A stretch of 64,000 bases of DNA from Gammaproteobacteria bacterium (GTDB lineage: Bacteria; Pseudomonadota; Gammaproteobacteria; GCA-001735895). The DNA lies in contig JBNKDE010000001.1 in assembly GCA_050288105.1 (NCBI GenBank), positions 16,097-80,096 on the forward strand, written 5' to 3'. The translations under genes were made by a program, and so were the position numbers. The notes under the pieces are model-generated. The model saw only the letters and a list, made by a program, of their open reading frames with translations. It made no database searches and was not told where the DNA came from. Below are positions 22,397 to 59,813 of this stretch, in pieces (the first letter of the stretch is position 1; each line of letters opens with the position of its first letter).

Positions 22397-23710
22397 ATGG
22401 CTGAGCATATCGGGTTATTTAAATTTGCCGTAGCCGCAGCTGGGTTCGAAGCTGTTGCAACTCCCTTAGATTACACAAGCGTAAATACGATATATTGTAA
22501 CGCGGCTTTTTCTGTTGACTGGGGTGATGGGACATTTGTCCCGTATGCTGCGGGGGCGCAAAGTTCAGTAGCAAGCGGCATAATTACTGTTAAATCATCA
22601 GCCTGCACAACGTTCCAATTTTTAACAGATACATTCTCTGATATCGATGTCACTAAAGCTGATTCAATAACCAGTATTTACAGGTCATTCAGAAATTTAA
22701 CCAACCTGACCAGTTTTTCATCTGTCACACTGACGAATGTTACCTCTGCATCCGGTGCCTGGGATGGATGTTCTGGTTTAACCTCATTCCCAGCGTTGAG
22801 TTTTCCAGCAGCCACCAGTTTCAACAGCACCTGGGAAGACTGCACAGGCTTAACGTCATTTCCGGTTATTAGTGTTCCTGTTGGCGATCGTTTTCAGGCA
22901 ACATGGAGAGGCTGCACAGGTTTAACCTCATTCCCTGATATTGATTTGTCGTCCGGCACTGATTTTTATAGTGCCTGGCAAAATTGCACAGGCATAGTGA
23001 CATTCACACCAACTGATATGTCAGGCGCCATTGAGGCTGATCAGGCGTGGCAAAATTGCTCAGGACTAACATCGTTTCCTTTGGTTGATTTAACAAGCTG
23101 CACTAATTTCAGCGGGGCATGGAAGGGGTGTACTGGATTAACGTCATTTCCATTGATAGATTTTAGCGCTGCGTTAAATCTTAGTAATGCATGGGATAGC
23201 TGTACTGGATTAACATCGTTCCCAGCAATAGACACATCATCTGTTACTAATTTTTATCAAGCATGGACTGACTGCTCTGGATTAACTAGCTTCCCATCTC
23301 TTAACGTTGCATCTGGTTTAGATTTTGGCGCCACATGGTATAAGTGCTCTGGTTTAACATCTTTCCCTGCGCTGACGTTTACATCTGCAACAAACCTAAA
23401 TTTGACGTGGGGAAACTGCACAGGGCTGACCAGCTTCCCAGCAACTAATTTCCCATCTGGTGACATATTTAATTATATGCTAACTGGGTGTACCAGTATC
23501 GTAACCGTTGGCGCTTTAGGAACATCTTCTGGAACCTCTTTTATAAGAATGTTTTCTAGCAATGCCGCAATGACCACAATAGACGCGCTTGATACAACAA
23601 ACACATCAGCAGCAACACCAGATTTATTTTTAGGTTGCACATCGCTGACATCGCCTGATTCGACAGAGCAGACATTATTAAAAAGCGCTTCAGGGTATGA
23701 TTTTAACTAA
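22397..23710 (+). CDS. BspA-like leucine-rich-repeat protein, putative tail fibre / receptor-binding protein
   Basis: About 13 repeats of a 23-aa unit (AWxxCTGLTSFPxxDxS), like the BspA-type LRR (LRR_5); it is the last structural gene. Confidence 0.55.
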   Translation: MAEHIGLFKFAVAAAGFEAVATPLDYTSVNTIYCNAAFSVDWGDGTFVPYAAGAQSSVASGIITVKSSACTTFQFLTDTFSDIDVTKADSITSIYRSFRNLTNLTSFSSVTLTNVTSASGAWDGCSGLTSFPALSFPAATSFNSTWEDCTGLTSFPVISVPVGDRFQATWRGCTGLTSFPDIDLSSGTDFYSAWQNCTGIVTFTPTDMSGAIEADQAWQNCSGLTSFPLVDLTSCTNFSGAWKGCTGLTSFPLIDFSAALNLSNAWDSCTGLTSFPAIDTSSVTNFYQAWTDCSGLTSFPSLNVASGLDFGATWYKCSGLTSFPALTFTSATNLNLTWGNCTGLTSFPATNFPSGDIFNYMLTGCTSIVTVGALGTSSGTSFIRMFSSNAAMTTIDALDTTNTSAATPDLFLGCTSLTSPDSTEQTLLKSASGYDFN

Positions 23711-24215: not shown

Positions 24216-24302
24216 TGGTGCCCAGGAGAGGACTTGAACCTCCACGACCGTAAGGCCACTAGCACCTGAAGCTAGCGCGTCTACCAATTCCGCCACCTGG
24301 GC
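24216..24302 (-). tRNA. leuX-like: tRNA-Leu (anticodon CAG), 87 nt with encoded CCA
   Basis: Cloverleaf read by hand: acceptor GCCCAGG/CCTGGGC, long variable arm, anticodon loop TTCAGGT. Confidence 0.85.
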
Positions 24303-26713: not shown

Positions 26714-27450
26714 TGTCTGGTCAGTACGTTTATGGCTTGCATGCAGTTAAGAAAATGCTGCAATTCTCGATTGATGACTGCGAGGCGCTGTATTTTCAGG
26801 AAACGAAAAACCAGCGCCTGCAGCAGATCATCAGCCTCGCCAAACAGAAGCAACTAGCGCTGCAAAAAGTCGACCGGGAGAAGCTGACCGAGCTGGCCAA
26901 CACCGACAAGCATCAGGGTTGCGTACTCAAGGTGAGTGCGCAGCATGCCAAAGCTGTCAGCCTGAAAGAGTTATTACTCAATGTCAGCGACAGTGATCTG
27001 TATCTGGTGCTGGATGGCGTGCAGGATCCGCATAACCTGGGTGCCTGTCTGCGCACGGCTGACGCCGCCGGGGTCAGGGCGGTGATTGTGCCCAAAGACC
27101 GTGCGGTAGGCATTACGCCGGTGGTGAAAAAGGTCGCTGCCGGTGCAGCTGAGTCTGTCCCCTTAATTACTGTGACCAATCTCGCCAGAAGCCTGAAAGA
27201 AATGAAAGACGCCGGTATCTGGCTGGTCGGCACCAGCGGCGATGCCGACAAAACCCTGTATCAGGAAACACTACGCGGTCCCGTCGCGGTGGTGATGGGT
27301 GCGGAAGGCGAAGGCATCCGCCGCCTGACCGCCGAACAATGCGATTACCTGGTCAAGCTCCCGATGCTGGGTCAGGTGGAAAGCCTGAATGTGTCGGTGG
27401 CGACCGGGGTTTGCCTGTATGAAATTAATCGCTCGAGACGAGATGATTGA
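26713..27450 (+). CDS. rlmB: 23S rRNA (guanosine-2'-O)-methyltransferase RlmB
   Basis: SpoU/TrmH-like methyltransferase of about 245 aa, translationally coupled to rnr as in other gammaproteobacteria. Confidence 0.85.
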   Translation: MSGQYVYGLHAVKKMLQFSIDDCEALYFQETKNQRLQQIISLAKQKQLALQKVDREKLTELANTDKHQGCVLKVSAQHAKAVSLKELLLNVSDSDLYLVLDGVQDPHNLGACLRTADAAGVRAVIVPKDRAVGITPVVKKVAAGAAESVPLITVTNLARSLKEMKDAGIWLVGTSGDADKTLYQETLRGPVAVVMGAEGEGIRRLTAEQCDYLVKLPMLGQVESLNVSVATGVCLYEINRSRRDD

Positions 27451-27480
27451 TTTTTGTTGCGTAGTTACATACCTTTGAAC

Positions 27481-27629
27481 AACGGACACCCAAGCACTAA
27501 CCGGTAATCCTGGTGTTTATCGGGCTCTGGGGCTACCCCAGGGTGCAATGATTACATCCTTAACGTAGCAGGAACGTCGTTGCACTGCGTGCAATCAAGT
27601 TCATGCGGACCCTGAGTTGGGTGTCCGTT
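27481..27629 (+). ncRNA. Retron msr-msd non-coding RNA
   Basis: Perfect 13-bp inverted repeats a1 (aacggacacccaa, 27481-27493) and a2 (ttgggtgtccgtt, 27617-27629) flank a roughly 120-nt region containing hairpins (ctgggg-cta-ccccag; ttgcac-tgc-gtgcaa). Lies immediately upstream of, and co-oriented with, the RT. Confidence 0.6.
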
Positions 27630-27652
27630 TTTTATTTCATAAGGAGAACATT

Positions 27653-28963
27653 TTGCATGGCCGACAGCGAAGTGATTTCGCTCAGCAATTAAGTTACTGG
27701 TTTTACAGCGCCGAATGGCACTACACCACCCTGTTGTCGAGCGCAATTCAAGCAATCGATGCGTTACCTGATGATATTGATCAACTGATTAATCAGTTAT
27801 TACTGGCCTTTCCTGTTAAACCTTCCCAGCAAGAGATACATCACTTTGTTGACCAGCACCCACTGGTAAGCTGCTGGTTTAACTGGTTTGTGAAAAAACC
27901 GAAAATTGTTCAGTACGCACTGCAAGGTCATGAACCGGCTTGCGAGAGTTCTCCCTCCCTGGCAACAACTAATGATTTACTGTTCTGGTTTGGTATTACC
28001 CAGTCGCAGCTAGACTGGCTTTGTGATACCAAATTTCGTCATGGTGATTATCGCGATCAACTGCAGCATTATCACTATCACTGTGTTAATAAACCCAGTG
28101 GGGGAGTTCGATTAATTGAATCACCTAAAAGCTTATTAAAATTTCTACAACAAAAAATAGCGCAAGATATTCTCTGTCATGCGCCGGTTCATGAAGCAGC
28201 TCATGGATTTAGGGCTAAACATAGCTGCTTAACCCATGCCAGAAATCATACTGGGAAAAGGTATTTATTAGTTTACGACCTGGCACATTTCTTTCAGTCT
28301 ATAGACTGGTTGCCTGTCTATCAGGTATTCAGAAATCTCGGCTATAACAAACTGATCGCGAGCACGCTAACCAACCTATGTACACACCGCTGTGTGTCAG
28401 GCGTGCCTGAGTTATCTCAACTCGACCCTCAACAACGTCAACGCGTTAAGCAAAGACATCTGGCGCAGGGTGCACCGTCTTCACCGGTACTTTCCAATGC
28501 GGTGATGCTGCGGCTGGATCGGCGCCTTAGTGGGTTAGCTGCAAGCCTGGGTCTGGTTTATTCACGCTATGCTGATGATTTAGCTTTTTCAACGGACCAG
28601 CATCGGGACTGGAATTTTTTAGAACCATTGATTGGCAGTATATGTATTGAAGAAGGTTTTGAGCTGAATTTTAAAAAAACGCGCCTTAAAGCCAGCCATC
28701 AAAAACAGAAGCTGGTGGGCATTGTTATCAACAATACACCTAACATTGAGCGTAGTTACTACGATGAGTTAAAAGCGATTTTAAATAATTGCATTCGTCA
28801 TGGTGCGGCTAGTCAGAACAGGTTGAATCATCCGGATTTCCCTGCCTATCTGTCGGGTCGTATCCAGTATGTGAATTCTCTGAATCCAGTTAAGGCTGAA
28901 AAGCTGAGAAGAGTATTTGAGAGAATTGATTTTTCCAAACAACAAGGGGACTTGCCTTCTTAA
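27653..28963 (+). CDS. Retron-type reverse transcriptase with an N-terminal extension of about 90 aa
   Basis: RT motifs VYDLAHFFQSI, LAQGAPSSPVLSNAVM, YSRYADDLAF and KLVGIVIN are co-linear with retron Ec86 RT. RBS AAGGAG lies ahead of TTG 27653; the six-frame ORF opens at 27617. Confidence 0.8.
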   Translation: MHGRQRSDFAQQLSYWFYSAEWHYTTLLSSAIQAIDALPDDIDQLINQLLLAFPVKPSQQEIHHFVDQHPLVSCWFNWFVKKPKIVQYALQGHEPACESSPSLATTNDLLFWFGITQSQLDWLCDTKFRHGDYRDQLQHYHYHCVNKPSGGVRLIESPKSLLKFLQQKIAQDILCHAPVHEAAHGFRAKHSCLTHARNHTGKRYLLVYDLAHFFQSIDWLPVYQVFRNLGYNKLIASTLTNLCTHRCVSGVPELSQLDPQQRQRVKQRHLAQGAPSSPVLSNAVMLRLDRRLSGLAASLGLVYSRYADDLAFSTDQHRDWNFLEPLIGSICIEEGFELNFKKTRLKASHQKQKLVGIVINNTPNIERSYYDELKAILNNCIRHGAASQNRLNHPDFPAYLSGRIQYVNSLNPVKAEKLRRVFERIDFSKQQGDLPS

Positions 28964-28984: not shown

Positions 28985-29182
28985 TTAGATGTCATCAGGG
29001 GAGGGCGGAATCAAATGCCTATCATCGGATTCCCTGCCTAATTCATCATCTATATACCACTCATCTACCATTTGCTGTAAATGCTGATGTCGATTACCGC
29101 GCTCTGCAGAGCGACTACGTTGGTGCACACCACCTTTGCGCAATAACGGATTCATCGCCACGCGATTTCTACGCCCAGGCAT
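28985..29182 (-). CDS. Small basic-N / acidic-C ORF (65 aa), possible last gene of the RtcB operon
   Basis: ORF overlapping the stop codon of the 320-aa gene by 14 nt. Confidence 0.2.
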   Translation of the reverse strand: MPGRRNRVAMNPLLRKGGVHQRSRSAERGNRHQHLQQMVDEWYIDDELGRESDDRHLIPPSPDDI

Positions 29183-45352: not shown

Positions 45353-45603
45353 TCAAGGTCGTTGGTTCAACCCGCCAGGCGCTTTTCCCTCCGCAATGCA
45401 TGTCCCGAGGCAGCCACTGAGGCTGTTTCCAATGCGTCAATATGTTGAAAGTTAACGCTCTGTCGAAGTGTCAATTAACTGGCGCAATGTGTTTTAAGCG
45501 CTGATTTTTGAACTCAATTTGATGTTGAGCGTTAATCTTCATATTTAATAAGTCGTTGAAATTCAATGGAAAATAGCTGATTTCCTGATGCCTGGGGTCT
45601 TTA

Positions 45604-45620
45604 TGGCATTAACCTTGCTT
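45604..45620 (+). promoter_or_regulatory. Sigma-54 promoter (TGGCAT-N5-TTGCT) upstream of fliL
   Basis: GG at 45605-45606 and GC at 45617-45618 with canonical spacing, about 35 nt upstream of the fliL start. Confidence 0.55.
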
Positions 45621-45651
45621 CACCAGAGTTGGCTGATACAGGAGAGCAATA

Positions 45652-46140
45652 ATGGCTGAAGAAGAAAATCCAGAACAAGAAACTACCAGTAGTAAAAAGA
45701 AACTCATCATCATAATCGTAGCCGCGCTATTGCTGGTTGGTTTAATCGCTGGTGTTGCCATGATGTTTCTGGGCGGTGATGAAACCGAGCAGGTGGTAGC
45801 CGAGGAGACAGGACCCAGTAAAGGCGAAGCACAATATTTTGAACTCAAGCCTTTCACCGTGAACCTTTCTGCTGACGACGAAGTGGCTTTTCTGCAGGTA
45901 CAGATTCAGGTGTTGACGTATTACAGCGAGGTAACCGAACAGCTGGAAAAACACCGCCCATTGATTCGCAACAACCTGACCCTGCTTTTCGCACAGCAGA
46001 AATCTGTAGAGCTGCGATCACCAGAAGGCAAACAGGCGCTGCAGAAAAAAGTTCTGGAAAGCATTCAGAACGTGATCAACAAATACGGTAAAGGCGGGCA
46101 GATTGAGAACGTGTTTTTCACCAATTTTGTGATGCAATAA
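45652..46140 (+). CDS. fliL: Flagellar basal-body-associated protein FliL
   Basis: Single N-terminal transmembrane helix; position immediately ahead of fliM. Confidence 0.75.
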   Translation: MAEEENPEQETTSSKKKLIIIIVAALLLVGLIAGVAMMFLGGDETEQVVAEETGPSKGEAQYFELKPFTVNLSADDEVAFLQVQIQVLTYYSEVTEQLEKHRPLIRNNLTLLFAQQKSVELRSPEGKQALQKKVLESIQNVINKYGKGGQIENVFFTNFVMQ

Positions 46141-46160
46141 TTTAACGGCAGAGAAATAGC

Positions 46161-47231
46161 GTGAGTACAGACATATTAAGCCAGGATGAAGTCGATGCCC
46201 TGTTGCATGGGGTAGACGATGGTGCTGTCGACACCTCTGTCGAAGACGATTTGCTGGATGGAGAAGCACGCGCTTTCGATTTTAATAATCAGGAACGCAT
46301 TATCCGGGGGCGCCTGCCCACCCTGGAAATGATCAACGAGCGATTCGCTCGATACTTTCGCGTTAATTTTTTTAATATGCTGCGCAAGACGCCTGAGATA
46401 TCGATCAATGGTATCCAGATGATCAAGTTTTCTGAGTATATCCACACGCTGTTTGTACCCACCAGTCTGAGTTTAATCAAGATGCAACCTCTAAAAGGTA
46501 CCGGAATGATTATGCTGGATCCAAAACTGGTATTTATTATCGTCGACAACTTCTTTGGAGGCGACGGCAGCATCCATGCCAAGATCGAAGGTCGTGAATT
46601 TACCAGTACCGAATTACGCGTTATAGAAAAAGTCGTGAATATGTGTTTCGTGGATTTGAAGCAGGCCTGGGAACCGATCATGGAAGTGAACTTCGATTAC
46701 CATAACCACGAAGTCAATCCTCACCTGGCCAATATCGTCAGCCCAACCGAAGTGATTGTTGTTTCCAGTTTCCATATTGAGCTGGAAGGTGGGGGTGGAG
46801 ATATACACATTGTTTTTCCCTATTCAATGATCGAACCCATTCGCTCAATACTGGACGCCGGTGTGCAGTCAGATCTGAGCGAATTAGATGACCGCTGGTC
46901 AGTTTTGTTAAAAGAAGAACTGATGCATGCAAAGGTTGAGCTAACCGCAATATTTGCGGAGAAAAGCCTTAAGGTCGGAGATTTAATTAACCTTCAGGCG
47001 GGTGACATTATCCCCATTGATATGCCCGAACAGGCCATCCTGATGGTTGATGAAATGCCCGTAATTCGGGGCCGCTATGGTGAGCATGACGGCAATGCGG
47101 CGATACGTGTTGAAAATATTTATGAACTGACTTCACCCGATGATCCTTTGATGAAAAAACTCAATGCAAAAGACAATGGCAAGCTGGAGATACTGGCGAT
47201 GACCAAAGCTAAAGACAAGAATGTGAAGTGA
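46161..47231 (+). CDS. fliM: Flagellar motor switch protein FliM
   Basis: The N-terminal CheY-P-binding motif LSQDEVDALL. Confidence 0.9.
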   Translation: MSTDILSQDEVDALLHGVDDGAVDTSVEDDLLDGEARAFDFNNQERIIRGRLPTLEMINERFARYFRVNFFNMLRKTPEISINGIQMIKFSEYIHTLFVPTSLSLIKMQPLKGTGMIMLDPKLVFIIVDNFFGGDGSIHAKIEGREFTSTELRVIEKVVNMCFVDLKQAWEPIMEVNFDYHNHEVNPHLANIVSPTEVIVVSSFHIELEGGGGDIHIVFPYSMIEPIRSILDAGVQSDLSELDDRWSVLLKEELMHAKVELTAIFAEKSLKVGDLINLQAGDIIPIDMPEQAILMVDEMPVIRGRYGEHDGNAAIRVENIYELTSPDDPLMKKLNAKDNGKLEILAMTKAKDKNVK

Positions 47232-47256
47232 TGAAACAGATGCTGGAGATAAAGCA

Positions 47257-47661
47257 ATGAACGACGAAACCGAAGACGCAGTTGATCAGGAAGCGATGGC
47301 TGACGAATGGGCGGCGGCGATGGAAGAGCAAAGCGCTGCCGAAGCTGAGGTTGCCAAGGTGGGTACACAACCACTGGGTAAGGAAAGTGTACAGCATGGT
47401 GACGTCAACCTGGAGGTGATACTGGATATCCCGGTCACCATTTCAATGGAAATTGGACGTACCCGGATCAGTATTCGAAACCTGCTGCAGTTAAATCAGG
47501 GTTCTGTCATCGAACTGGATCGGCTGGCAGGAGAGCCTATGGATGTACTGGTGAATGGTACTCTGGTGGCACATGGTGAGGTGGTTGTGGTGAATGAGAA
47601 ATTCGGTATTCGTTTAACCGATGTGATCAGTCCTGCTGAACGTATCAAGAATTTAAAATAG
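47257..47661 (+). CDS. fliN: Flagellar motor switch protein FliN
   Basis: C-terminal SpoA domain (LDIPVTISMEIGRTRISIRNLLQL). Confidence 0.85.
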   Translation: MNDETEDAVDQEAMADEWAAAMEEQSAAEAEVAKVGTQPLGKESVQHGDVNLEVILDIPVTISMEIGRTRISIRNLLQLNQGSVIELDRLAGEPMDVLVNGTLVAHGEVVVVNEKFGIRLTDVISPAERIKNLK

Positions 47662-47671
47662 CCAGCCTGAA

Positions 47672-48106
47672 GTGATGAAATACTTACTGTTGATATTGTT
47701 CCTGACGCCCTTACAGAGCATGGCGCAACAGGCAGTTGAAAAAACTTCTGCAGTAGATCCTGTTTCATCTTCGTATATGATTAAACTTACCGCTGGACTG
47801 GTGCTGGTGGTTGGACTGGTTTTTTTTCTGGCCTGGCTGGTAAAAAAAACCCAGCTGGTACAGGGCTCTAACTCAGGTCTGATCAAGATAGTCAGTGCCA
47901 TATCCGTCGGACAGCGCGAACGAATTGCGTTAATTCAGGTGGGGGAAGAACAGATACTGGTCGGCCTCACTCCTGGCAGAATAGATAAATTGCACAAGCT
48001 GGAAAAAGCGCTCAGCGTAGACCATGCAGCGGTGCCCGCGTCAAACTCTTTTCAACAAAAATTCCAGCAACTGATCAATAAAGGTAAATCCGATGAGATG
48101 GATTAA
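47672..48106 (+). CDS. fliO: Flagellar biosynthesis protein FliO
   Basis: Position in the cluster and a single transmembrane segment. Confidence 0.7.
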
Positions 48107-48842
48107 TCTGATCTGGGTGCTGTTATTGTTTGTTGCGTTACCGGCAGAAGCACAGCTAGCCGGTATTCCCGCATTAAGCGTCAGCGGTGGTGCGGCCGAC
48201 GGTCAAACTTACAGCGTAACACTGGAAATTCTGGCACTGATGACTGTGCTGACAGTGTTGCCAGCGATCCTGCTGATGATGACTTCCTTTACTCGTATCG
48301 TCATCGTATTAGCGATTCTCCGACAGGCAATGGGGACTGCGTCTTCACCCTCAAATCAGATAATTATTGGTCTGGCACTTTTCTTATCCCTGTTTATTAT
48401 GTCTCCTGTTTTGGTACAGGTAAACGACCAGGCGGTGCAACCTTATCTACAGGAAAAAATGTCGGCGATACAGGCCATCAAGGTTGCAGTGGAGCCTTTT
48501 AAAACCTTTATGCTGGCACAGACCCGCGAAACCGATATACGCATGTTTGCCGATATTGCGGGCATTGATTCCATCGCTTCTCCGGAAGAAACTCCGCTCA
48601 GATTATTGTTACCCGCCTTTGTTACCAGTGAGCTGAAAACAGCGTTTCAGATCGGCTTCATGATTTTTATCCCTTTTGTCATCATCGACCTGGTGGTTGC
48701 CAGTGTATTGATGTCTATGGGTATGATGATGCTCTCCCCATTAATTATTTCATTACCATTCAAGTTGATGCTGTTTGTACTGGTGGATGGATGGTCTTTG
48801 ATTATGGGTACCCTGGCATCGAGTTTTCTGGTCAACAGCTAA
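48093..48842 (+). CDS. fliP: Flagellar export apparatus protein FliP
   Basis: Signal peptide plus the conserved FliP core. Confidence 0.9.
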
Positions 48843-48852
48843 AAGGGGGCAA

Positions 48853-49123
48853 GATGAATGCAGATACTGTTATCGATCTTGGACAGCAGGCTTTATATGT
48901 CATCGTAATGCTGGCAGCGCCGATGTTGCTGTCTGCACTGGCAATAGGTCTGTTGATTGGTATGTTCCAGGCAGCGACCCAGATTAATGAAATGACCCTC
49001 AGCTTTATTCCCAAGCTGCTGGTTCTGGTTTTATCCATCATGGTGGCGGGTCCGTGGATGCTGGATACGATCCTGAATTTCACTAGACGTCTGTATTTAA
49101 GTATACCGGGCATGTTGGGGTAG
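48853..49123 (+). CDS. fliQ: Flagellar export apparatus protein FliQ
   Basis: About 90 aa with two transmembrane segments; starts MNADTVIDLGQQ. Confidence 0.85.
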
Positions 49124-49125
49124 CG

Positions 49126-49899
49126 ATGGACGTTGATGCTGCACAGGCAACTGCATTTGTCGGATCACTACTCTGGCCCTTTATGCGTATTTCAGCCATG
49201 CTGATGGCTATGCCTGTGATTGGTACCAGACTGGTCTCTGTACGAGTACGCGTGGTACTTGCGGTGGTAATCAGCTTTCTGGTGCTACCACTGCTTCCCG
49301 AAATGCCTGCGGTAGAACCACTGTCAGCAGCAGGCCTGACCATCTCGGTGCATCAGCTGCTGATAGGTCTGGCGATGGGGTTTATCCTGCAACTGGTACT
49401 GGGAGCGCTGACGATCGCTGGTGAAGCCATCGCGATGACCATGGGCCTGGGATTTGCATCCATGGTCGATCCGGCTAATGGTGTCAATGTGCCGGTACTA
49501 TCGCAGTTTTTCCTGATTCTGGGCACGCTGTTATTCCTGGCACTGGGTGGTCATCTGATGGTAATTCAACTGGTGGTAAGCAGTTTTCAATCCATTCCAG
49601 TGGGGCTTGAGGGGATACAAAGGGAGAGTTTCTGGGTCATCATCAGTTTTTCCAGCCAGATGTTTATAGCAGCTATCTGGATTGCATTGCCCGCATTGAT
49701 TTCGATTTTAGTGATTACCCTGGCGATGGGCATTATGACCCGCGCTGCACCTCAGCTAAATATATTTTCTGTAGGCTTTCCGGTCACCATGCTGATGGGG
49801 TTTGTCATTTTGATGCTGTTGATACCCACCATACTGCCGCGCTTTAACCAGCTGCTGTTAATGGGTATGCAGGCTAGTCAGAGGATTGGAGGGTTGTAA
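49126..49899 (+). CDS. fliR: Flagellar export apparatus protein FliR
   Basis: Polytopic membrane protein in the conserved position. Confidence 0.85.
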   Translation: MDVDAAQATAFVGSLLWPFMRISAMLMAMPVIGTRLVSVRVRVVLAVVISFLVLPLLPEMPAVEPLSAAGLTISVHQLLIGLAMGFILQLVLGALTIAGEAIAMTMGLGFASMVDPANGVNVPVLSQFFLILGTLLFLALGGHLMVIQLVVSSFQSIPVGLEGIQRESFWVIISFSSQMFIAAIWIALPALISILVITLAMGIMTRAAPQLNIFSVGFPVTMLMGFVILMLLIPTILPRFNQLLLMGMQASQRIGGL

Positions 49900-51026
49900 T
49901 GGCTGACAACGATACCAGTCAGGAAAAGACCGAACAGCCGACGCCGAAAAAACTGCGCGAGGCGCGCGAGAAAGGACAGATTCCACGCTCCAAGGAGCTG
50001 AACAGCATGACCATTATGGTCGCGGGTGCGATCGGCCTGCTGTTTATGGGGTCATATATTATTGGCTCGCTATCAGGTTTGATGACTAGCGGTTTCAGCC
50101 TGTCACGTGTGGAGATACAGGATACAGCCTCTATCATCATTCGATTTGAAAATGCCATATACGATGCATTTATCGGTTTATTACCGTTTCTGTCTCTCAT
50201 GGTTATCGTGGCTATTTTGACACCTTTAATGCTGGGCGGCTGGTCTTTCAGCCTTGACCAGATCAGTTTTAAAGGCGAGCGACTGGATCCCATCGCAGGA
50301 ATAAAACGAATTTTTTCCGCACGCGGTTTGATGGAGCTGGTGAAAGCCCTGGCCAAGTTTCTGGTGGTGTCGGTTATTGCGGTTATTTTTATGTGGACTA
50401 ATGCGGACGAATTTCTGCATCTGGGACGTGAGCCGTTTTATCAGGGGCTGACCCATGCTGCCTGGCTGTTTGGATATGCATTTCTGGTGATGTCGCTGGC
50501 GCTATTACTGATTGCTGCCATTGATGTTCCATTCCAGCTCTGGGATCACAGCAATAAGCTGAAGATGACGATGCAGGAAGTACGCGATGAAATGAAGGAA
50601 ACCGAAGGTCGCCCAGAGGTCAAGTCACGCATTCGTGGGCTACAGCAGGAAATGGCCCAGCGTCGCATGATGCAGGATGTACCCGACGCCGACGTCATTA
50701 TCACCAACCCTACTCACTATGCGGTAGCGCTTAAATACGATCCTGAAACCATGGCGGTTCCTGTGGTGGTGGCTATGGGTAAGGATTTGATCGCACTCAA
50801 GATCAGAGAAATCGGACAGGCTTCCGGCGTCGAGATCTTTGAAGCACCACCATTGGCGCGCGCGTTGTTTGCCCATTCCAAACTGGGTCAGGAAATACCA
50901 GGGCAGCTGTATTACGCAGTCGCACAGGTTCTGGCCTTTATCTTCCAGTTAAAAAATGCCCGTGAGCATGGACTGGATATCCCGGATCGACCCGATCCTT
51001 ATGTTCCAACCGATGAGCAGAAATAA
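49899..51026 (+). CDS. flhB: Flagellar export apparatus protein FlhB
   Basis: The NPTH autocleavage motif (ITNPTHYAVAL). Confidence 0.9.
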   Translation: MADNDTSQEKTEQPTPKKLREAREKGQIPRSKELNSMTIMVAGAIGLLFMGSYIIGSLSGLMTSGFSLSRVEIQDTASIIIRFENAIYDAFIGLLPFLSLMVIVAILTPLMLGGWSFSLDQISFKGERLDPIAGIKRIFSARGLMELVKALAKFLVVSVIAVIFMWTNADEFLHLGREPFYQGLTHAAWLFGYAFLVMSLALLLIAAIDVPFQLWDHSNKLKMTMQEVRDEMKETEGRPEVKSRIRGLQQEMAQRRMMQDVPDADVIITNPTHYAVALKYDPETMAVPVVVAMGKDLIALKIREIGQASGVEIFEAPPLARALFAHSKLGQEIPGQLYYAVAQVLAFIFQLKNAREHGLDIPDRPDPYVPTDEQK

Positions 51027-51028
51027 TT

Positions 51029-53122
51029 ATGGCTACGCTTGTTCAACAAATTCGAGGCTTTAACACACAGGGACTGGCAGCGCCGTTGCTGGTCATCATG
51101 ATGCTGGCAATGGTGGTTATTCCGCTACCGCCGATGGCGCTGGATATGTTGTTTACTTTTAATATTGCGTTTGCGCTGATCGTGGTACTGGTGTCGGTTT
51201 ATGCACTACGACCGCTCGACTTTTCGGTATTTCCTACCATATTGCTGGTGGCTACCCTGTTGCGTCTGGCACTGAATATCGCCTCTACCCGGGTGGTACT
51301 GCTGGAAGGCCATACCGGCACCGCTGCTGCGGGTAAAGTGATAGAAGCCTTCGGTGATTTTGTTATCGGTGGTAACTATGCAGTCGGTCTGGTGGTTTTT
51401 GGTATTCTGGTCATTATAAACTTTGTGGTGGTAACCAAGGGTGCAGGTCGTGTGTCAGAAGTCAGCGCTCGATTTACCCTGGATGCCATGCCGGGTAAAC
51501 AGATGGCGATAGATGCAGATCTGAATGCCGGATTGTGTACTCAGGATGAAGCCCGTCAGCGCCGCGCCGAAGTTGCACAGGAAGCGGATTTTTACGGCTC
51601 TATGGACGGTGCCAGTAAGTTTGTTCGTGGTGATGCGATTGCCGGTATTCTCATCCTGTTTATCAATATCATTGGCGGGCTCGCGATCGGCATCCTGCAG
51701 CATGATATGGCCGCGTCTGATGCCTTACGCAACTATACGCTGTTAACCATAGGTGATGGTCTGGTCGCACAGATACCTTCACTGGTGCTCTCTACTGCCA
51801 CTGCGATTATTGTTACCCGTGTGTCGGCTTCCAGTGAAATGGGCGGCCAGGTGTTTGCGCAGATGTTTGAAGACCCGCGCTCCCTGATCGTAACAGCCTC
51901 TATCCTGACCGTGATGGGAATCATCCCGGGTATGCCGAATTTTGCATTCCTGTCGCTGGCGGCTATCTCGGGTGGCCTGGCTTACAGCATCCAAAAGAAA
52001 AAGCAGCGAATTGCCGAGGAAGTGGAAGCGGTTCCTGCAGTAGTAGAAAAACCGCAGCAGAAAGAACTCAGCTGGGATGACGTCAAGACTGTAGACATGA
52101 TTGGTCTGGAAGTCGGCTACGGGTTGATTCCGCTGGTAGATGAGCGTCAGGGTGGTGAGTTAATGACTCGCATCAAGGGGGTGCGCAAGAAACTCTCGCA
52201 GGAACTGGGCTTTCTGGTGCAGTCCGTACATATCCGCGATAACCTCGATTTACCACCGAATGGCTATCGCTTAAGCATGCTGGGTGTGCCTATGGGTGAA
52301 GCAGAGGTTATGCCCGGTAAGGATCTGGCGATCAATCCTGGAACGGTTTATGGAGAATTGAGTGGGATTGCCACCAAAGATCCTGCGTTTGGGCTGGATG
52401 CTGTGTGGATTGATCCGGCTCAGCGCGATCATGCGCAGACCCTGGGTTATACGGTGGTGGATGTCTCCACCGTGGTTGCAACCCATCTGAGTCAGATGCT
52501 GCAGGAGAATGCGCATGAAATGATCGGGCACGAAGAAGTCCAGCAATTGATGGAAGTGCTCAAGCGCAATGCCCCCAAACTGGTAGAGAACCTGACGCCC
52601 AAACCGTTGCCGCTGTCAGTGATTGTCCGCGTCCTGCAGAGCCTGCTTCAGGAACAGATATCCATTCGCGATCTACGCACGATAGCCGAAACCTTGGCGG
52701 ATTATGGTCAGCACAGTCAAGATCCCGGCATTTTGACCTCTCAGGTCAGGGTGGCTCTGGGTCGTCAAATCGTACAAAGTATCTATGGAATGGCTTCAGA
52801 GCTTACTGTGATGACCTTGCACCCTTCGCTGGAACAGATTTTGCAACAGTCAGTACAGGGAGAAGGTGGCAAGGTGATGGCGTTTGAGCCCGGTCTTGCT
52901 CAGGTGATGCATAACTCACTCAGGGAAAGTACACAGAACCAGCTGGCGAAAGGACAACCTGCCGTGTTGCTGGTATCTCAGAACCTGCGTGCTTTCCTGT
53001 CGCGCATGGTACGCCACGGTATTCAGGGGCTGCATGTGCTGAGTTATGAAGAAATCCCGGAAGATAAACAGATTAAGGTGATTGCCAGTGTGGGAAATCC
53101 GGCAAACACGCAGGGGCAATAA
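51029..53122 (+). CDS. flhA: Flagellar export apparatus protein FlhA
   Basis: 697 aa with an N-terminal membrane domain and a cytoplasmic domain. Confidence 0.9.
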   Translation: MATLVQQIRGFNTQGLAAPLLVIMMLAMVVIPLPPMALDMLFTFNIAFALIVVLVSVYALRPLDFSVFPTILLVATLLRLALNIASTRVVLLEGHTGTAAAGKVIEAFGDFVIGGNYAVGLVVFGILVIINFVVVTKGAGRVSEVSARFTLDAMPGKQMAIDADLNAGLCTQDEARQRRAEVAQEADFYGSMDGASKFVRGDAIAGILILFINIIGGLAIGILQHDMAASDALRNYTLLTIGDGLVAQIPSLVLSTATAIIVTRVSASSEMGGQVFAQMFEDPRSLIVTASILTVMGIIPGMPNFAFLSLAAISGGLAYSIQKKKQRIAEEVEAVPAVVEKPQQKELSWDDVKTVDMIGLEVGYGLIPLVDERQGGELMTRIKGVRKKLSQELGFLVQSVHIRDNLDLPPNGYRLSMLGVPMGEAEVMPGKDLAINPGTVYGELSGIATKDPAFGLDAVWIDPAQRDHAQTLGYTVVDVSTVVATHLSQMLQENAHEMIGHEEVQQLMEVLKRNAPKLVENLTPKPLPLSVIVRVLQSLLQEQISIRDLRTIAETLADYGQHSQDPGILTSQVRVALGRQIVQSIYGMASELTVMTLHPSLEQILQQSVQGEGGKVMAFEPGLAQVMHNSLRESTQNQLAKGQPAVLLVSQNLRAFLSRMVRHGIQGLHVLSYEEIPEDKQIKVIASVGNPANTQGQ

Positions 53123-53176
53123 GCTGACTGGGTGGCCTTATACCGACTAAAGAACAGAATATGATAATCAGGTGTA

Positions 53177-54730
53177 GTGATGAGAATTAAGCGTACTTAT
53201 GGAGCTACCATGCGTGAGGCACTGGCACAGGTAAAACTGGAGCAGGGACCTGATGCGGTTATTTTAGGAAATAAGAAAGTACCGGGTGGCGTGGAAATTC
53301 TATCAGCGATAGATTTCGATCATAAACAGGTTGATGCTTATGCCGGGAATCCTTCTATTGCATTGAGCGAAGCTGTCTCTGAACCCGCCTGGCAGACACA
53401 GGCAATCCCAGAGCAGCGGACGCTACCGCAAAGCGCCGAGCTTGCCGCTGCGAGCGTGCCTGATTTTATCTTTGAACAAAATGGCGAAGGTAGAAAAGAG
53501 CCTGTGCTCGGGATGCCAGCCCAGATTATTCCGATGCAGTCTAAAGTGGCACAGGCAGAACCCGAAAGGCCCCCAATCATTAAACCCACGGTCTCCAGAC
53601 CGACTAACAAAATACAGAGTACGCCCAACTCTAAAGCCGCCCCTCAGCCAAAGGTAGCGCAAAAGCCTGCGCCTAAAAAAACACTACCTGTTGAAGAAGA
53701 AGCACAGGCTCGCGCTGCCCAGGCTGATCAACTGTTGAAGAGTTTACGTAACAATGAGTACGGCCAGCGCCCGCATCATGATTTGTCTAATCCTATGATC
53801 GAGGAAGTGAAGGGCGAGCTGCAAAACCTGCGTGAACTGATGGCGAGTCAGTTAAACGTGCTGGAGTGGGATCGTTTCAACCAGCGCCATCCAGTCAGGT
53901 CTGTATTGTTAAATCTGATGACAGAGCTGGGGCTGGGCACCGATACCTGTGAAATGATTTTTGAAAAACTGGGCGTGCTGAATGACGACCCGCACAAGGT
54001 CTGGCAGAAAGCGCTGGGTATCCTGGCTACCTCCATACCCATTAGCCAGCATGATATTCTGGCCGAGGGCGGCAGGATTGCACTGGTGGGTTCTACCGGC
54101 GTCGGCAAGACTACCACGATTGCCAAGCTGGCGGCGCGCTTTGCACATACCCACGGTAAACGTTCGGTAGCGCTAATCAGTACCGATAATTTTCGGGTAG
54201 GGGCACAGGATCAGTTACAGCATTTCGCTCGTCTTCTGGAGATCCCTTTACTGACAGCACACACTAGTGAGGAACTTACCGATAGTCTCAAAATGCTGGA
54301 AGATAAGCGCCTGGTGCTGATAGATACTGCGGGCATGAGCCAGACTGATGTACGCCTGTCAGAACAGTTTCATAGCTTGCAGCATGGTTCCCCGGAAGTG
54401 CAGCCCTACCTGGTATTGTCTGCCAATACGCAGCTTGCGGCGGTGAATGCGACGGTCAAATGTTTTGCCCGAGTCAAGCTGGCCGGCACCATAATTACCA
54501 AACTGGACGAATCAGCCAGTCTTGGGGGGATTTTGACGGCATCTATTCGCCATCAGTTGCCGATATCCTATTGCGGCACAGGGCAGAAGGTTCCAGAGGA
54601 TTTACAGCCAGCGAAAAATCATCGGCTGGTGAGCAAGGCGGTGTCACTGATGCAGAACTATACCGAGCAGGTGGATAAGGAAACCCTGGCATTTCGTTAT
54701 AACCATCTGATATCAACCACCCGGAGCTAA
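53177..54730 (+). CDS. flhF: Flagellar biosynthesis GTPase FlhF
   Basis: SRP-type GTPase motifs (GSTGVGKTTT, DTAG). Confidence 0.85.
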   Translation: MMRIKRTYGATMREALAQVKLEQGPDAVILGNKKVPGGVEILSAIDFDHKQVDAYAGNPSIALSEAVSEPAWQTQAIPEQRTLPQSAELAAASVPDFIFEQNGEGRKEPVLGMPAQIIPMQSKVAQAEPERPPIIKPTVSRPTNKIQSTPNSKAAPQPKVAQKPAPKKTLPVEEEAQARAAQADQLLKSLRNNEYGQRPHHDLSNPMIEEVKGELQNLRELMASQLNVLEWDRFNQRHPVRSVLLNLMTELGLGTDTCEMIFEKLGVLNDDPHKVWQKALGILATSIPISQHDILAEGGRIALVGSTGVGKTTTIAKLAARFAHTHGKRSVALISTDNFRVGAQDQLQHFARLLEIPLLTAHTSEELTDSLKMLEDKRLVLIDTAGMSQTDVRLSEQFHSLQHGSPEVQPYLVLSANTQLAAVNATVKCFARVKLAGTIITKLDESASLGGILTASIRHQLPISYCGTGQKVPEDLQPAKNHRLVSKAVSLMQNYTEQVDKETLAFRYNHLISTTRS

Positions 54731-54735
54731 TCAAC

Positions 54736-55599
54736 ATGGATCAGGCGCAAGGACTAAGACAGATGAAACATCAAAAACCGGTGCAGGTGATTGCCATAAC
54801 CAGCGGTAAGGGCGGTGTGGGTAAGAGCAACATATCGGTGAACGTCGCTGTCGCACTGGCGCAGCAGGGCCAGAATGTGATGATCATGGATGCGGATCTG
54901 GGGCTGGCCAATATTGATGTTCTGCTGGGGCTTTCCCCGGGATACAACCTGTCGCACGTGATCAATGGTGAATGCTCTCTGGATGAAACCTTGATTGACG
55001 GACCTGCTGGGATCAAAATAATTCCTGCATCATCGGGTACACGCGAGATGGCTGACCTCAACTCCGTGCAGAATGCCGGAATCATACGCGCCTTTTCTGA
55101 TCTCACCGCGCCGATAGATACGCTGTTAATCGATACGGCTGCCGGTGTCTCTGACTCTGTTGTGAGTTACGTACGTGCCGCACGTGAAGTTATTATTGTG
55201 GTGTGTGATGAACCCGCATCGATTACTGACGCCTACGCGATGATCAAGGTGATGAATCGAGACTTTCAGGTACAGAGATTTCACGTTTTAGCCAATATGG
55301 CCCATAGCATTCAGCAGGGACGTGAGCTATATATGAAGTTAGCAAGAGTAGCCGACCAATTTCTGGATGTTACGCTCGATTTTGTTGGTTCGGTCCCCTA
55401 TGACGATTATTTGAGAAAAGCGGTACAAAAGCAAAAGTGCGTAATAGAGATGTACCCCCGAAGCCCGTCAGCGATGGCGTTCCGCAAAATAGCCCAGAAG
55501 GCGATGAGTTGGCCAGTGCCGAGAACAATAGAGGGGCATCTGGAGTTTTTCATCGAGAGATTGATGGATTACAGCGGCAACAGCGAGGTGAGAGGCTGA
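54736..55599 (+). CDS. fleN: Flagellar number regulator FleN/FlhG (MinD-like ATPase)
   Basis: The deviant Walker A motif (TSGKGGVGKSN). Confidence 0.85.
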   Translation: MDQAQGLRQMKHQKPVQVIAITSGKGGVGKSNISVNVAVALAQQGQNVMIMDADLGLANIDVLLGLSPGYNLSHVINGECSLDETLIDGPAGIKIIPASSGTREMADLNSVQNAGIIRAFSDLTAPIDTLLIDTAAGVSDSVVSYVRAAREVIIVVCDEPASITDAYAMIKVMNRDFQVQRFHVLANMAHSIQQGRELYMKLARVADQFLDVTLDFVGSVPYDDYLRKAVQKQKCVIEMYPRSPSAMAFRKIAQKAMSWPVPRTIEGHLEFFIERLMDYSGNSEVRG

Positions 55600-56324
55600 T
55601 GAATGGGCATGCCATGTATGCTGAAGTGGAACGATATGGTAAAGAGAATATCGTTGCGCGGCATGCTGCATTGGTGAAACGAATTGCTTTTCATCTAGTC
55701 AATCGATTACCGGCGCATGTACAGGTAGATGATTTGATTCAGGCGGGTATGCTGGGGTTGCTGGAAGCAGCCAGTAATTTTGATGCCAGCCAGGGTGCCA
55801 GTTTTGAAACCTATGCAGGTATTCGAATTCGCGGCTCTATGCTGGATGAAATAAGAAAACTGGACTGGACACCCCGTTCAGTTCACCGAAAATCGCGTGC
55901 TGTGAGTGAAGCGATTCGAAAAATTGAACATCAAAAGGGGACTGACGCGACTGATCAGGAAATTGCACAGGAGTTGGGCATCTCACTTTCTGAATATCAC
56001 CAGATTTTGATTGATACCAACAGTAGCAGGGTATTCAGTATTGAGGCGTTGCAGGAAGAAAACGATTATCAGGTGCCTGCAGAGAATAATAACTCACCAT
56101 TCGACCACATAAGCGATGATGAGTATCAAAAGCTTTTAGCTGATAGTATTCGCAGTTTGCCAGAAAAAGAGCAGTTGGTGATGTCACTTTATTACCAGGA
56201 TGAATTGAATTTCCGGGAGATCGGTCAGGTACTGGATGTCAGCGAATCGCGAGTTTGTCAGATTCATGGCCAGGCCATGTTGCGTATCAGAAGCAAGATG
56301 TCAGACTGGATTTCCAGTCGCTGA
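55599..56324 (+). CDS. fliA: Flagellar sigma factor FliA (sigma-28)
   Basis: Sigma-70 regions 2 and 4. Its ATG overlaps the fleN stop codon (tgATGa). Confidence 0.85.
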   Translation: MNGHAMYAEVERYGKENIVARHAALVKRIAFHLVNRLPAHVQVDDLIQAGMLGLLEAASNFDASQGASFETYAGIRIRGSMLDEIRKLDWTPRSVHRKSRAVSEAIRKIEHQKGTDATDQEIAQELGISLSEYHQILIDTNSSRVFSIEALQEENDYQVPAENNNSPFDHISDDEYQKLLADSIRSLPEKEQLVMSLYYQDELNFREIGQVLDVSESRVCQIHGQAMLRIRSKMSDWISSR

Positions 56325-56408
56325 TCCCCATATCCTCTTTCGGGTTAATTCAATAGGTTTATTCTATAATAGCCCTGTGAAGATTTGATTTTATATTATG
56401 CTTAAACA

Positions 56409-56416
56409 GCCGATAA
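56409..56416 (+). promoter_or_regulatory. Sigma-28 (-10) element GCCGATAA upstream of cheY
   Basis: Exact match to the sigma-28 -10 consensus, about 55 nt upstream of the cheY start. Confidence 0.5.
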
Positions 56417-56469
56417 CGCTTTAAAGCGCATTGTTGGCTTATCTAATGTATGCAATAGGCGGAGGTTGC

Positions 56470-57599: not shown

Positions 57600-57649
57600 T
57601 AATTGTCGGGTGATTTTCATCAGATTTTAAGTATTAGACGGGTAAGCCG

Positions 57650-59764: not shown

Positions 59765-59813
59765 GATTGATGTAGATTAATTTAACAAATGGTCAGCAAA
59801 CTTTATTTTCATT

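What the first reader, a model, noticed from the sequence alone, without database searches (positions are those of the whole stretch)
27481..28963. Retron with an N-terminally extended RT and no co-oriented effector gene
The msr-msd unit with perfect 13-bp a1/a2 inverted repeats is followed immediately by a retron-type RT, so the retron assignment is solid. All canonical RT motifs are present. The RT is about 436 aa, roughly 90 aa longer at its N-terminus than Ec86-type RTs. The only downstream genes are convergent, and the upstream gene is rlmB. Most characterised retrons need an adjacent effector: ribosyltransferase, ATPase plus HNH, 2TM, TIR and so on. Either the N-terminal extension is itself the effector or a regulatory domain, or the convergent operon supplies the partner. 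Either would be a non-standard architecture.
Basis: partly seen in the sequence, partly recalled or inferred. Interest (0 to 1): 0.75.

Follow-up and report, generated by a model that had tools for sequence, protein, structure and literature searches.

The report
Effector-less retron of a catalogued orphan lineage
This is a real, well-conserved retron made of only a small structured RNA and a reverse transcriptase with its own extra N-terminal domain, but it belongs to a retron lineage already listed as lacking a partner gene, so the layout is normal for its family and only its function remains unknown.

Summary
A 13-bp perfect a1/a2 inverted repeat (27481-27493 / 27617-27629) encloses a structured ncRNA. 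A 436-aa retron-type RT follows it (TTG 27653 to 28963).

- The same ncRNA lies just upstream of the RT in 81 of 88 related loci. Covariation is strong: 97% of cells paired, 19 of 31 pairs compensatory.
- The N-terminal extension is a roughly 80-aa five-helix bundle. It occurs only on RTs of this family, has no invariant polar residue and no fold match, so it is unlikely to be an enzymatic effector.
- The convergent genes (p65, p320, RtcB, SPFH) are not the partner. Two relatives with 78%-identical RTs keep the retron between rlmB and rpsF but lack these genes. p320 homologues elsewhere sit without an RT.
- About 88 loci share no neighbouring gene, and flanking gene orientation is random.
- All members tested match PADLOC RT_other/RT_outgroup full-length, well above RT_XIII. 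The family most likely equals Mestre et al.'s "clade 11", a lineage already described as lacking accessory genes.

Verdict: a new member of a known kind, under purifying selection (dN/dS about 0.1), function unknown. Interest is modest.

The parts
27481..27493 (+). a1 arm of the closing helix of the retron ncRNA (5' end of msr)
   Evidence: Perfect 13-bp complement of 27617-27629. In alignment A4, 9 of the 10 scored pairs of this helix show compensatory changes, with 95% of cells paired.
27494..27494 (+). Predicted branching (priming) G, in the context CCAA-G-C
   Evidence: Invariant G directly 3' of a1 in all 28 aligned ncRNAs. Simon 2019 places the priming G at this position. Actual 2'-5' branching is inferred, not shown.
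27500..27514 (+). Variable msr hairpin 1 (ACCGG-UAAUC-CUGGU)
   Evidence: Read from the sequence. Relatives carry a hairpin of different sequence and length at the same place. It was not scored for covariation because the alignment is poor there.
27525..27543 (+). Invariant msr hairpin CUCUGGGG-CUA-CCCCAGGG, the family signature
   Evidence: Present, almost unchanged, upstream of the RT in marine and soil homologues. 100% of cells are paired; the C-G to U-A swap occurs at one pair in 7 sequences.
27568..27606 (+). Two-tier msd hairpin, the predicted template for the msDNA
   Evidence: Outer stem: 6 of 7 pairs have compensatory change. Inner stem: 3 of 6. Also present in the minimum-free-energy fold.
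27616..27616 (+). Invariant G directly 5' of a2, opposite the branching G; predicted first templated base
   Evidence: Invariant column G133 in A4. Mestre 2020 describes 'two opposing G residues'. Its role is inferred.
27617..27629 (+). a2 arm of the closing helix
27484..27626 (+). Whole ncRNA as matched by covariance model R1
   Evidence: The only + strand hit in the 64-kb window (104.9 bits, E 1.6e-21). Fold z-score is -4.8 against shuffles. There is no Rfam family match.
27641..27647 (+). Shine-Dalgarno AAGGAGA for the RT
   Evidence: Read from the sequence. It lies 5 nt before TTG 27653.
27653..28963 (+). Retron reverse transcriptase, 436 aa
   Evidence: PADLOC RT_other 1e-128 (residues 4-431) and RT_outgroup 1e-121. 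Pfam RVT_1. AF2 pLDDT 90. The best PDB folds are retron RTs. dN/dS is 0.10-0.12.
27653..27892 (+). Family-specific N-terminal five-helix domain (residues 1-80)
27968..28024 (+). Two short helices (residues 106-124, motif DL..W.GI....L.WL) leading into RT motif 0/1
   Evidence: Conserved across the family (L109, W112, L120, W122). Helices in the model. PADLOC RT_XIII and RT_III-A profiles begin to align here.
28568..28579 (+). Catalytic YADD (residues 306-309)
   Evidence: Y306, D308 and D309 are invariant and A307 is nearly invariant in 39 sequences. Codons read.

Best explanation
This is a bona fide retron with two components and no cis-encoded effector. It belongs to an RT family that is already catalogued as 'other/outgroup' in PADLOC and that most likely equals clade 11 of Mestre et al. 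2020.

How it most likely works:
- The ~150-nt ncRNA folds with a1/a2 closing a variable hairpin, an invariant GGGG-YUA-CCCC hairpin and a two-tier msd hairpin.
- The RT binds this RNA and primes from the 2'-OH of G27494.
- It starts copying at G27616 and reads back through the msd hairpin. The product would be a branched msDNA of roughly 50-65 nt that stays bound to the RT.
- The ~80-aa N-terminal helical bundle is a private structural module of this family. It most likely holds the ribonucleoprotein together, by contacting the invariant hairpin or another protein subunit, rather than acting as a toxin.
- The output of the system does not depend on any adjacent gene. Either the RT-msDNA particle works with a factor encoded elsewhere, or it acts on its own.

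Shown here: the conserved RNA structure, RT integrity, purifying selection, the restriction of the N-domain to this family, and the absence of a conserved neighbour.
Inferred: msDNA synthesis and its length, the role of the N-domain, and the biological function.
For: - ncRNA covariation: 97.1% of cells paired, 19 of 31 pairs with compensatory change, 0 of 500 shuffles reach the observed values, and slid controls give 33-49% paired.
- Covariance model R1 finds the ncRNA just upstream of the RT on the + strand in 81 of 88 RT loci. More than 50 of these were not used to build the model. It gives one + strand hit in the window and none in two control loci.
- RT: retron motifs are intact. It matches RT_other/RT_outgroup full-length, including the N-terminus. 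The closest solved folds are retron RTs. dN/dS is 0.10-0.12 overall and 0.12-0.14 for the N-domain.
- N-domain: of 152 hits among 1.84 billion representatives, nearly all lie at or near the N-terminus, and every hit examined is an RT of this family or a fragment of one.
- No partner gene: no non-RT protein cluster occurs in more than 6 of about 88 loci. Flanking gene orientation is random: 31 co-oriented against 30 convergent downstream, 29 against 31 upstream. No Pfam family recurs in more than 3 of 121 immediate neighbours. No conserved small ORF lies downstream. No retron accessory family was found in the 64-kb window.
- Literature: clades 2 and 11 lack associated proteins. Clade 11 has two predicted msr/msd families and no accessory module, and occurs in Pseudomonadota, Actinomycetota and Acidobacteriota.
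Against: - No msDNA has been shown for this locus, and I found no experiment for this family.
- Membership in Mestre's clade 11 could not be tested directly, because its reference sequences and covariance models are not available here. Mestre described clade 11 as essentially actinobacterial, whereas this branch is marine gammaproteobacterial.
- No sigma-70-like promoter was found upstream of a1.
- A partner encoded elsewhere in the genome cannot be excluded from a 64-kb window.
- dS is near saturation (1.1-1.5), so the dN/dS values are approximate.
- The N-domain is mildly acidic, which does not favour direct RNA binding.
Confidence: 0.8

Rival explanations
1. This is a tripartite retron whose effector is supplied by the convergent cluster p65-p320-RtcB-SPFH (28985-32576).
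For: The cluster lies directly next to the RT here and in the 76%-identical relative L003. RtcB and SPFH are plausible stress or defence parts. p320 has no known family.
Against: L001 and L002 (78%-identical RT, same rlmB-to-rpsF slot) lack the cluster, and L002 keeps a deletion scar of it. Homologues with about 50% RT identity sit among unrelated metabolic genes. p320 homologues (847) in Beggiatoa and Ketobacter have no RT, RtcB or SPFH nearby. The orientation is convergent. The papers that mention both a retron and RtcB do so only in passing.
Confidence: 0.04
2. The N-terminal extension is itself the effector, a toxic or enzymatic domain fused to the RT as in types I-C, VII-A1, XI and XII.
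For: The domain is strictly linked to this effector-less family and is under purifying selection. Fused effectors do exist in other retron types.
Confidence: 0.1
3. This is a degenerate type XIII (myxobacterial-type) retron that has lost its SWIM/winged-helix and HEAT/ARM genes.
For: RT_XIII is the next-best profile (2e-88). Type XIII RTs also have an extended N-terminus, and Mx65 also lacks the N of NAXXH. One of 121 neighbour genes (in L080) partly matches HEAT-ARM_XIII.
Against: Every family member tested scores 120-205 bits higher on RT_other than on RT_XIII, and RT_XIII never aligns to the first ~100 residues. About 88 loci lack the type XIII genes. Both the RT and the ncRNA are under clear constraint, so this is not decay.
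Confidence: 0.05
4. The RT and ncRNA form a retron-like pair that does not make classical branched msDNA. It would instead make another cDNA product, like the two-component DRT2 or DRT9 systems, with the cDNA or RT itself as the defensive agent.
For: Only two components are conserved. DRT2 and DRT9 RTs appear among the weaker fold matches. From my own knowledge, DRT2 uses an RT plus an ncRNA alone.
Against: All the retron hallmarks are present: the a1/a2 helix, the invariant G at the a1 boundary and the opposing G, the region X histidine and motif 7 glycine, and retron RTs as the closest folds by about ten orders of magnitude in E-value over DRTs.
Confidence: 0.08

Closest known systems
Orphan retron lineage 'clade 11' of Mestre et al. 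2020 (PADLOC RT_other / RT_outgroup; SPIRE clade11-A/-B)
   Same: Retron RT plus an upstream msr/msd, with no recurrent accessory gene. The RT matches RT_other and RT_outgroup full-length, including the N-terminus. The host range fits, with relatives among Pseudomonadota and in high-GC soil and peat metagenomes.
   Different: Membership was inferred by proxy only. The marine gammaproteobacterial branch scores lower on RT_other (413-429 bits) than soil or betaproteobacterial members (470-530 bits). Whether its ncRNA matches model A or model B is unknown.
Type XIII retrons (Retron-Mxa1/Mx162, Mxa2/Mx65, Sau1/Sa163, Nex2/Ne144; RT clade 10)
   Same: Next-best RT profile. The RT has a ~100-aa N-terminal extension of unknown function. 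Region X has a substituted Asn, as in Mx65. The pattern looks like vertical inheritance at a fixed chromosomal site.
   Different: No SWIM/winged-helix gene and no HEAT/ARM gene. The N-terminal regions do not align by HMM. The ncRNA is short, about 150 nt.
Retron-Eco5 (Ec107) branch of clade 2
   Same: A chromosomal retron, not in a prophage, with no linked effector.
   Different: From PADLOC profile lengths and Simon 2019: the Ec107-like RT is about 307 aa with no N-terminal extension and has YCDD instead of YADD. The RT_Ec107-like profile scores only 179 bits here.
Retron-Eco1 (Ec86, type II-A3)
   Same: The closest solved RT fold (7v9x_A, E 4e-19, 28% identity). Same ncRNA logic of an a1/a2 helix, a priming G and an msd hairpin.
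   Different: Ec86 has a cis-encoded NDT effector and a 320-aa RT without the N-domain.
DRT2 and DRT9 (UG/Abi-class RT plus ncRNA defence systems)
   Same: Two-component systems of an RT plus an ncRNA with no separate effector. This is an analogy only.
   Different: A different RT class with weak fold matches, and no a1/a2 helix or branching-G architecture.

Membership tests
Retron (general) | Retron-type RT with region X (NAXXH, H most conserved), a YADD core and the motif 7 VTG-type glycine | tested here: met
   H199, Y306, D308, D309 and G356 are invariant and A307 is nearly invariant in 39 sequences. Region X reads HARNH, with N replaced by H as reported for Mx65. The best PDB folds are retron RTs.
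Retron (general) | Adjacent ncRNA closed by a1/a2 inverted repeats, with a conserved priming G at the 3' end of a1 and an msd stem-loop | tested here: met
Retron (general) | Production of 2'-5' branched multicopy ssDNA (msDNA) | not testable with these tools
   Needs nucleic-acid extraction or RT-DNA sequencing.
Tripartite retron systems, types I-XIII (Mestre 2020) | A specific accessory or effector gene next to the RT, or an effector domain fused to it | tested here: not met
   No conserved neighbour in about 88 loci. No accessory-family hit in the window. No known domain is fused.
Type XIII retron | RT belongs to clade 10 | tested here: not met
   RT_XIII scores 296 bits against 429 for RT_other, and aligns only from residue 101. 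The same gap appears in all 20 other family members tested. This rests on HMM scores, not on a tree.
Type XIII retron | Linked SWIM Zn-finger/winged-helix protein and HEAT/ARM (WGR) protein | tested here: not met
   None in the window. Among 121 immediate neighbours, a single protein (in L080) gave partial HEAT-ARM_XIII and WGR_XIII matches.
Clade 11 orphan retrons (Mestre 2020) | RT groups with the clade 11 reference sequences | not testable with these tools
   The reference sequences and HMMs are not held here. The proxy is a full-length best hit to PADLOC RT_other/RT_outgroup and a matching host range.
Clade 11 orphan retrons (Mestre 2020) | No associated protein cluster | tested here: met
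Clade 11 orphan retrons (Mestre 2020) | ncRNA matches the clade11-A or clade11-B msr/msd model | not testable with these tools
   Those covariance models are not in Rfam (no hit) and are not available here. My own model R1 defines one coherent ncRNA family.

The most novel reading that the evidence does not exclude
Retrons of this orphan family would be self-sufficient two-component systems. The RT, with its private N-terminal helical domain clamped to the invariant GGGG-YUA-CCCC hairpin, together with its msDNA, would be the whole machine. It would act either as a stand-alone phage sensor and effector, or as a domesticated ribonucleoprotein with a cellular role that is inherited vertically in a core-genome slot. 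In either case it would not be a guard for a toxin.
Probability: 0.25. Interest if true: 0.7.

Novelty: new member of a known kind. Interest (0 to 1): 0.3.

Why it matters
Retrons are currently understood as three-part toxin-antitoxin-like defence systems. Lineages with no effector (the Ec107-like branch and clade 11) are the unexplained exception.

This locus does not open a new category, but it is a clean example of that exception. It has a compact ~1.5-kb unit and a strongly covarying ncRNA with an invariant hairpin. Its N-terminal domain is found nowhere else. Close relatives that kept the retron while losing the neighbouring genes show that the unit stands alone in cis.

The fragment could be used directly to test whether effector-less retrons make msDNA and whether they defend against phage. 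The covariance model and the N-domain profile built here would also help annotate this family, which Rfam, Pfam and NCBIfam currently miss or leave below threshold.

Tried and rejected
- Rfam scan of the locus at E up to 1: only a chance IRES match.
An alignment query would have reached further.
- MAFFT alignment A3 put a1/a2 out of register between the marine and soil clades, so RNAalifold missed the closing helix. I fixed this by trimming each sequence to its a1 and a2 ends (A4) and writing the structure by hand.
- Free search for the best 12-nt a1/a2 pairing sometimes picked other registers, because soil members have 18-20-bp helices.
- Foldseek against afdb50, meant to compare the N-domain with the N-termini of type XIII RTs: the library was unavailable.
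- Promoter scan: no sigma-70-like site upstream of a1.
- Supplements of Mestre 2020 are not held, so clade assignments could not be looked up.
- Literature searches for retron plus RtcB, and for effector-less retron function, gave nothing relevant.
- The Khan et al. census text gives no result specific to clade 11.
- Considered and rejected: a link between the retron and the prophage. The relative L003 has the retron without any prophage upstream.

Full report
**1. What is in the sequence**

Between the stop codon of rlmB (27450) and position 28963 lies a compact unit.
- A perfect 13-bp inverted repeat has arms at 27481-27493 (AACGGACACCCAA) and 27617-27629 (TTGGGTGTCCGTT). It extends to 16 nt at 94% complementarity.
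- The mechanical ORF begins at TTG 27617, inside a2. The likely start is TTG 27653, five bases after an AAGGAGA Shine-Dalgarno. This gives a 436-aa protein that ends at 28963.
- Public gene calls for a 99%-identical copy use the same start. The TTG and the first residues are conserved in relatives.
- Pfam sees only RVT_1, at residues 145-358.
- Upstream are rnr and rlmB. Downstream, all on the opposite strand, are a 65-aa ORF, a 320-aa protein with no family (p320), RtcB and an SPFH/Band-7 protein. After these come three tRNAs, a Cro/CI-type HTH gene and rpsF-rpsR-rplI.

The only change is that a2 starts one base earlier than stated.

**2. The RT is a retron RT, and its extension is a family trait**

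- An AlphaFold2 model built on 39 homologues is confident (pLDDT 90.4). Its best matches among solved structures are retron RTs: Ec86 (7v9x_A, E 4e-19, 28% identity), Eco2 and Eco7/Ec78. Group II intron and DRT enzymes follow about ten or more orders of magnitude behind.
- An alignment of 39 family members has these invariant residues: H199 (the H of region X, here HARNH), D209, Q272-G273, S277-P278, Y306, D308, D309 and G356 in motif 7. A307 of YADD is nearly invariant. These are the retron-specific features named by Mestre et al. and Simon et al..
- PADLOC profiles RT_other (1e-128, residues 4-431) and RT_outgroup (1e-121, residues 6-426) match the protein end to end, including the N-terminus. 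RT_XIII (2e-88) and all other retron types align only from about residue 101-138.
- The RT stays below the curated cut-off of every NCBIfam retron family; St85 scores 203 against a cut-off of 235.
- About 60 proteins of 420-445 aa from marine Gammaproteobacteria (Arenicella, Exilibacterium and metagenome-assembled genomes) cover 96-98% of the query at 45-78% identity. A wider set at 35-47% identity comes from Burkholderiales genomes and from soil and peat metagenomes.

**3. The ncRNA is real and defines the family**

- The region upstream of each RT homologue examined carries the same layout:
  - a1 ending in CCAA;
  - an invariant G (27494 here);
  - a variable hairpin;
  - an almost invariant hairpin CUYUGGGG-YUA-CCCCARGG (27525-27543);
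  - a linker;
  - a two-tier hairpin (27568-27606);
  - an invariant G (27616);
  - a2.
- I scored a hand-written structure on a 28-sequence alignment trimmed to a1 and a2.
  - 97.1% of cells form standard pairs.
  - 19 of 31 pairs show compensatory double changes.
  - None of 500 column shuffles reaches the observed values.
  - Sliding the partners by 1-3 columns drops pairing to 33-49%.
  - The a1/a2 helix alone has 9 of 10 pairs with compensatory change.
- The single-sequence fold of the window RNA reproduces these helices, with a z-score of -4.8.
- A covariance model built from this alignment finds one + strand hit in the whole 64-kb window (27484-27626, 104.9 bits). It finds a full-length + strand hit just upstream of the RT in 81 of the 88 RT loci searched, more than 50 of which were not used to build it. 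It finds nothing in two control loci.
- Rfam has no matching family.

**4. The N-terminal extension**

- In the models, residues 1-80 form five helices. A low-confidence linker follows (about residues 84-104), then two short helices (106-124) that lead into RT motif 0/1.
- A profile of the first ~93 positions, run against 1.84 billion representative proteins, finds only 152 proteins. Nearly all hits lie at or near the N-terminus. Every hit I examined is an RT of this family or a truncated fragment that runs on into the RT. Ten further carriers all match RT_other best and none matches RT_XIII best.
- The only positions conserved in at least 90% of sequences are L13, W22, L27 and P57, which look like core residues rather than a catalytic set.
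- The domain is under purifying selection, with dN/dS of 0.12-0.14 against 0.07-0.08 for the RT core.
- I read it as a family-specific structural or interaction module, not an enzymatic effector. Its actual contact partner is unknown.
- N-terminally extended retron RTs are not new in themselves. The myxococcal type XIII RTs have an extension of unknown function. I could not test whether the two extensions share a fold, because the AlphaFold library was unavailable.

**5. There is no partner gene in cis**

- Homologues at about 50% identity sit among unrelated metabolic and regulatory genes.
- I clustered all ORFs of at least 90 aa from about 88 loci. No non-RT cluster is shared by more than six loci, and the largest such clusters are antisense artefacts or generic families.
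- Flanking genes are oriented at random: 31 co-oriented against 30 convergent downstream, and 29 against 31 upstream.
- Among 121 immediate neighbours, no Pfam family recurs more than three times. PADLOC finds one partial HEAT-ARM_XIII match, in L080.
- No conserved small ORF lies in the 450 nt downstream of the RT in 69 loci.
- None of the 61 other large ORFs of the window matches a retron accessory family.

**6. The convergent cluster is not the partner**

- The 76%-identical relative L003 has the same order: rnr, rlmB, retron, p65, p320, RtcB, SPFH, HTH, rpsF.
- In L001 and L002 (78% identical) the retron sits in the same slot and is followed almost directly by rpsF. L002 retains the last 21 codons of SPFH and the C-terminal part of the HTH gene, which is a deletion scar.
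- The retron was therefore kept after these genes were lost.
- p320 has 847 homologues. In Beggiatoa and Ketobacter they have no RT, RtcB or SPFH nearby.
- The few papers that mention both a retron and RtcB do so only in passing.

**7. Comparison with what is known**

- Mestre et al. noted that a few RT clades, namely branches of clades 2 and 11, have no associated protein cluster. They left open whether these use trans effectors or have another function.
- A 2026 survey treats clade 11 as a standard reference group. It has two predicted msr/msd families (A and B) and no recurrent accessory module, and clade11-A is enriched in Pseudomonadota, Actinomycetota and Acidobacteriota.
- The family studied here fits that description and is already captured by PADLOC's RT_other/RT_outgroup profiles.
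- I could not verify identity with clade 11, because the reference sequences and models are not available. I therefore give it as the most likely placement, not as a tested one.
- The family is clearly separate from type XIII. The score gap is 120-205 bits, the N-terminus does not align, and there are no SWIM or HEAT genes.

**8. Mechanism, with what is shown and what is inferred**

- Shown:
  - a constrained RNA with retron architecture;
  - an intact, constrained retron RT (dN/dS 0.10-0.12; dS is near saturation, so the values are approximate);
  - strict coupling of the RNA, the N-domain and the RT;
  - independence from neighbouring genes.
- Inferred from established retron biochemistry (Simon 2019, Mestre 2020):
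  - priming from the 2'-OH of G27494;
  - initiation opposite G27616;
  - copying of the msd hairpin;
  - termination near the U/A-rich stretch at about 27555-27565, giving an msDNA of roughly 50-65 nt.
- Speculative: the biological output.
  - The fixed position between core genes in three diverged genomes, and the absence of defence-island context elsewhere, fit long-term vertical retention.
  - This pattern was reported for myxobacterial retrons and discussed by Mestre et al. as possible domestication.
  - A defence role through an unlinked factor, or through the RNP itself, is equally open.

**9. Verdict**

The finding is real and correctly described. Its two proposed explanations are not supported, and the architecture is the norm for a catalogued orphan retron lineage. 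It is a new member of a known kind. The open question it touches, what effector-less retrons do, is real but is not specific to this locus.

Noticed in passing
window 1-24100, with tRNA-Leu(CAG) at 24216-24302 (-): A prophage-like block ends next to a tRNA-Leu gene, about 3 kb upstream of the retron. It includes CII/CP76 (267-719), a VapE-like primase, terminase gpA, a lambda-type portal, and tail and tail-fibre-like genes. One of these, a 437-aa protein at 22397-23710, is full of CTGLTSFP repeats. The relative L003 has the retron without this block, so the two are unrelated.
   Followed up: partly
window 28985-32576 (-): The convergent cluster p65-p320-RtcB-SPFH/Band-7 is a variable insert between the retron and a tRNA cluster. 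It is present in L003 and L091, absent in L001, and deleted with a scar in L002. L001 carries a 64%-identical RtcB paralogue about 9 kb upstream instead.
   Followed up: partly
window 29169-30131 (-): p320 belongs to a widespread uncharacterised family: 847 homologues at E up to 1e-5, about 310-340 aa, mostly Gammaproteobacteria. It has no Pfam, NCBIfam or PADLOC match. In Ketobacter it is also followed by a small ORF of 77 aa. By eye, a D...E-x-Q stretch (MDIDLERGEALIEEIQND) hints at a PD-(D/E)xK-like nuclease. This was not tested.
   Followed up: partly
window 32874-33219 (-) and 33539-34132 (+): A tRNA-Met/Leu/Lys cluster and a DicA/Cro-type HTH gene lie between the variable insert and rpsF. 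In L002 only residues 85-197 of the HTH gene remain next to the SPFH remnant, which marks one deletion event.
   Followed up: partly
P0191 (535 aa), P0254 (647 aa), P0258 (576 aa): Some RTs of the family carry extra N-terminal material. P0191 has two tandem copies of the N-domain. P0254 has about 220 extra residues, including a long acidic E/D/W-rich stretch, ahead of the domain.
   Followed up: no
L080 2882-6328 (+): One soil-metagenome locus has a 1149-aa HEAT-repeat protein directly upstream of the retron. It partly matches PADLOC HEAT-ARM_XIII (2.8e-29) and WGR_XIII (1.2e-08). It is the only hint among 121 neighbours of a link to type XIII accessory genes.
   Followed up: partly
window ~45600-61900 (+): A flagellar export and chemotaxis cluster (FliM, FliN, FliP, FlhB, FlhA/FHIPEP, an SRP54-type FlhF, ParA/MinD-like ATPases, CheZ and CheW). 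This places the retron in an ordinary core-chromosome setting.
   Followed up: no
window 27430-27480: No sigma-70 consensus promoter was found between the rlmB stop and a1. A TTGATTTTTG...CATACCTT stretch that overlaps the rlmB stop is conserved in the three close relatives. The ncRNA may be transcribed from a non-consensus promoter or by read-through from rlmB.
   Followed up: partly
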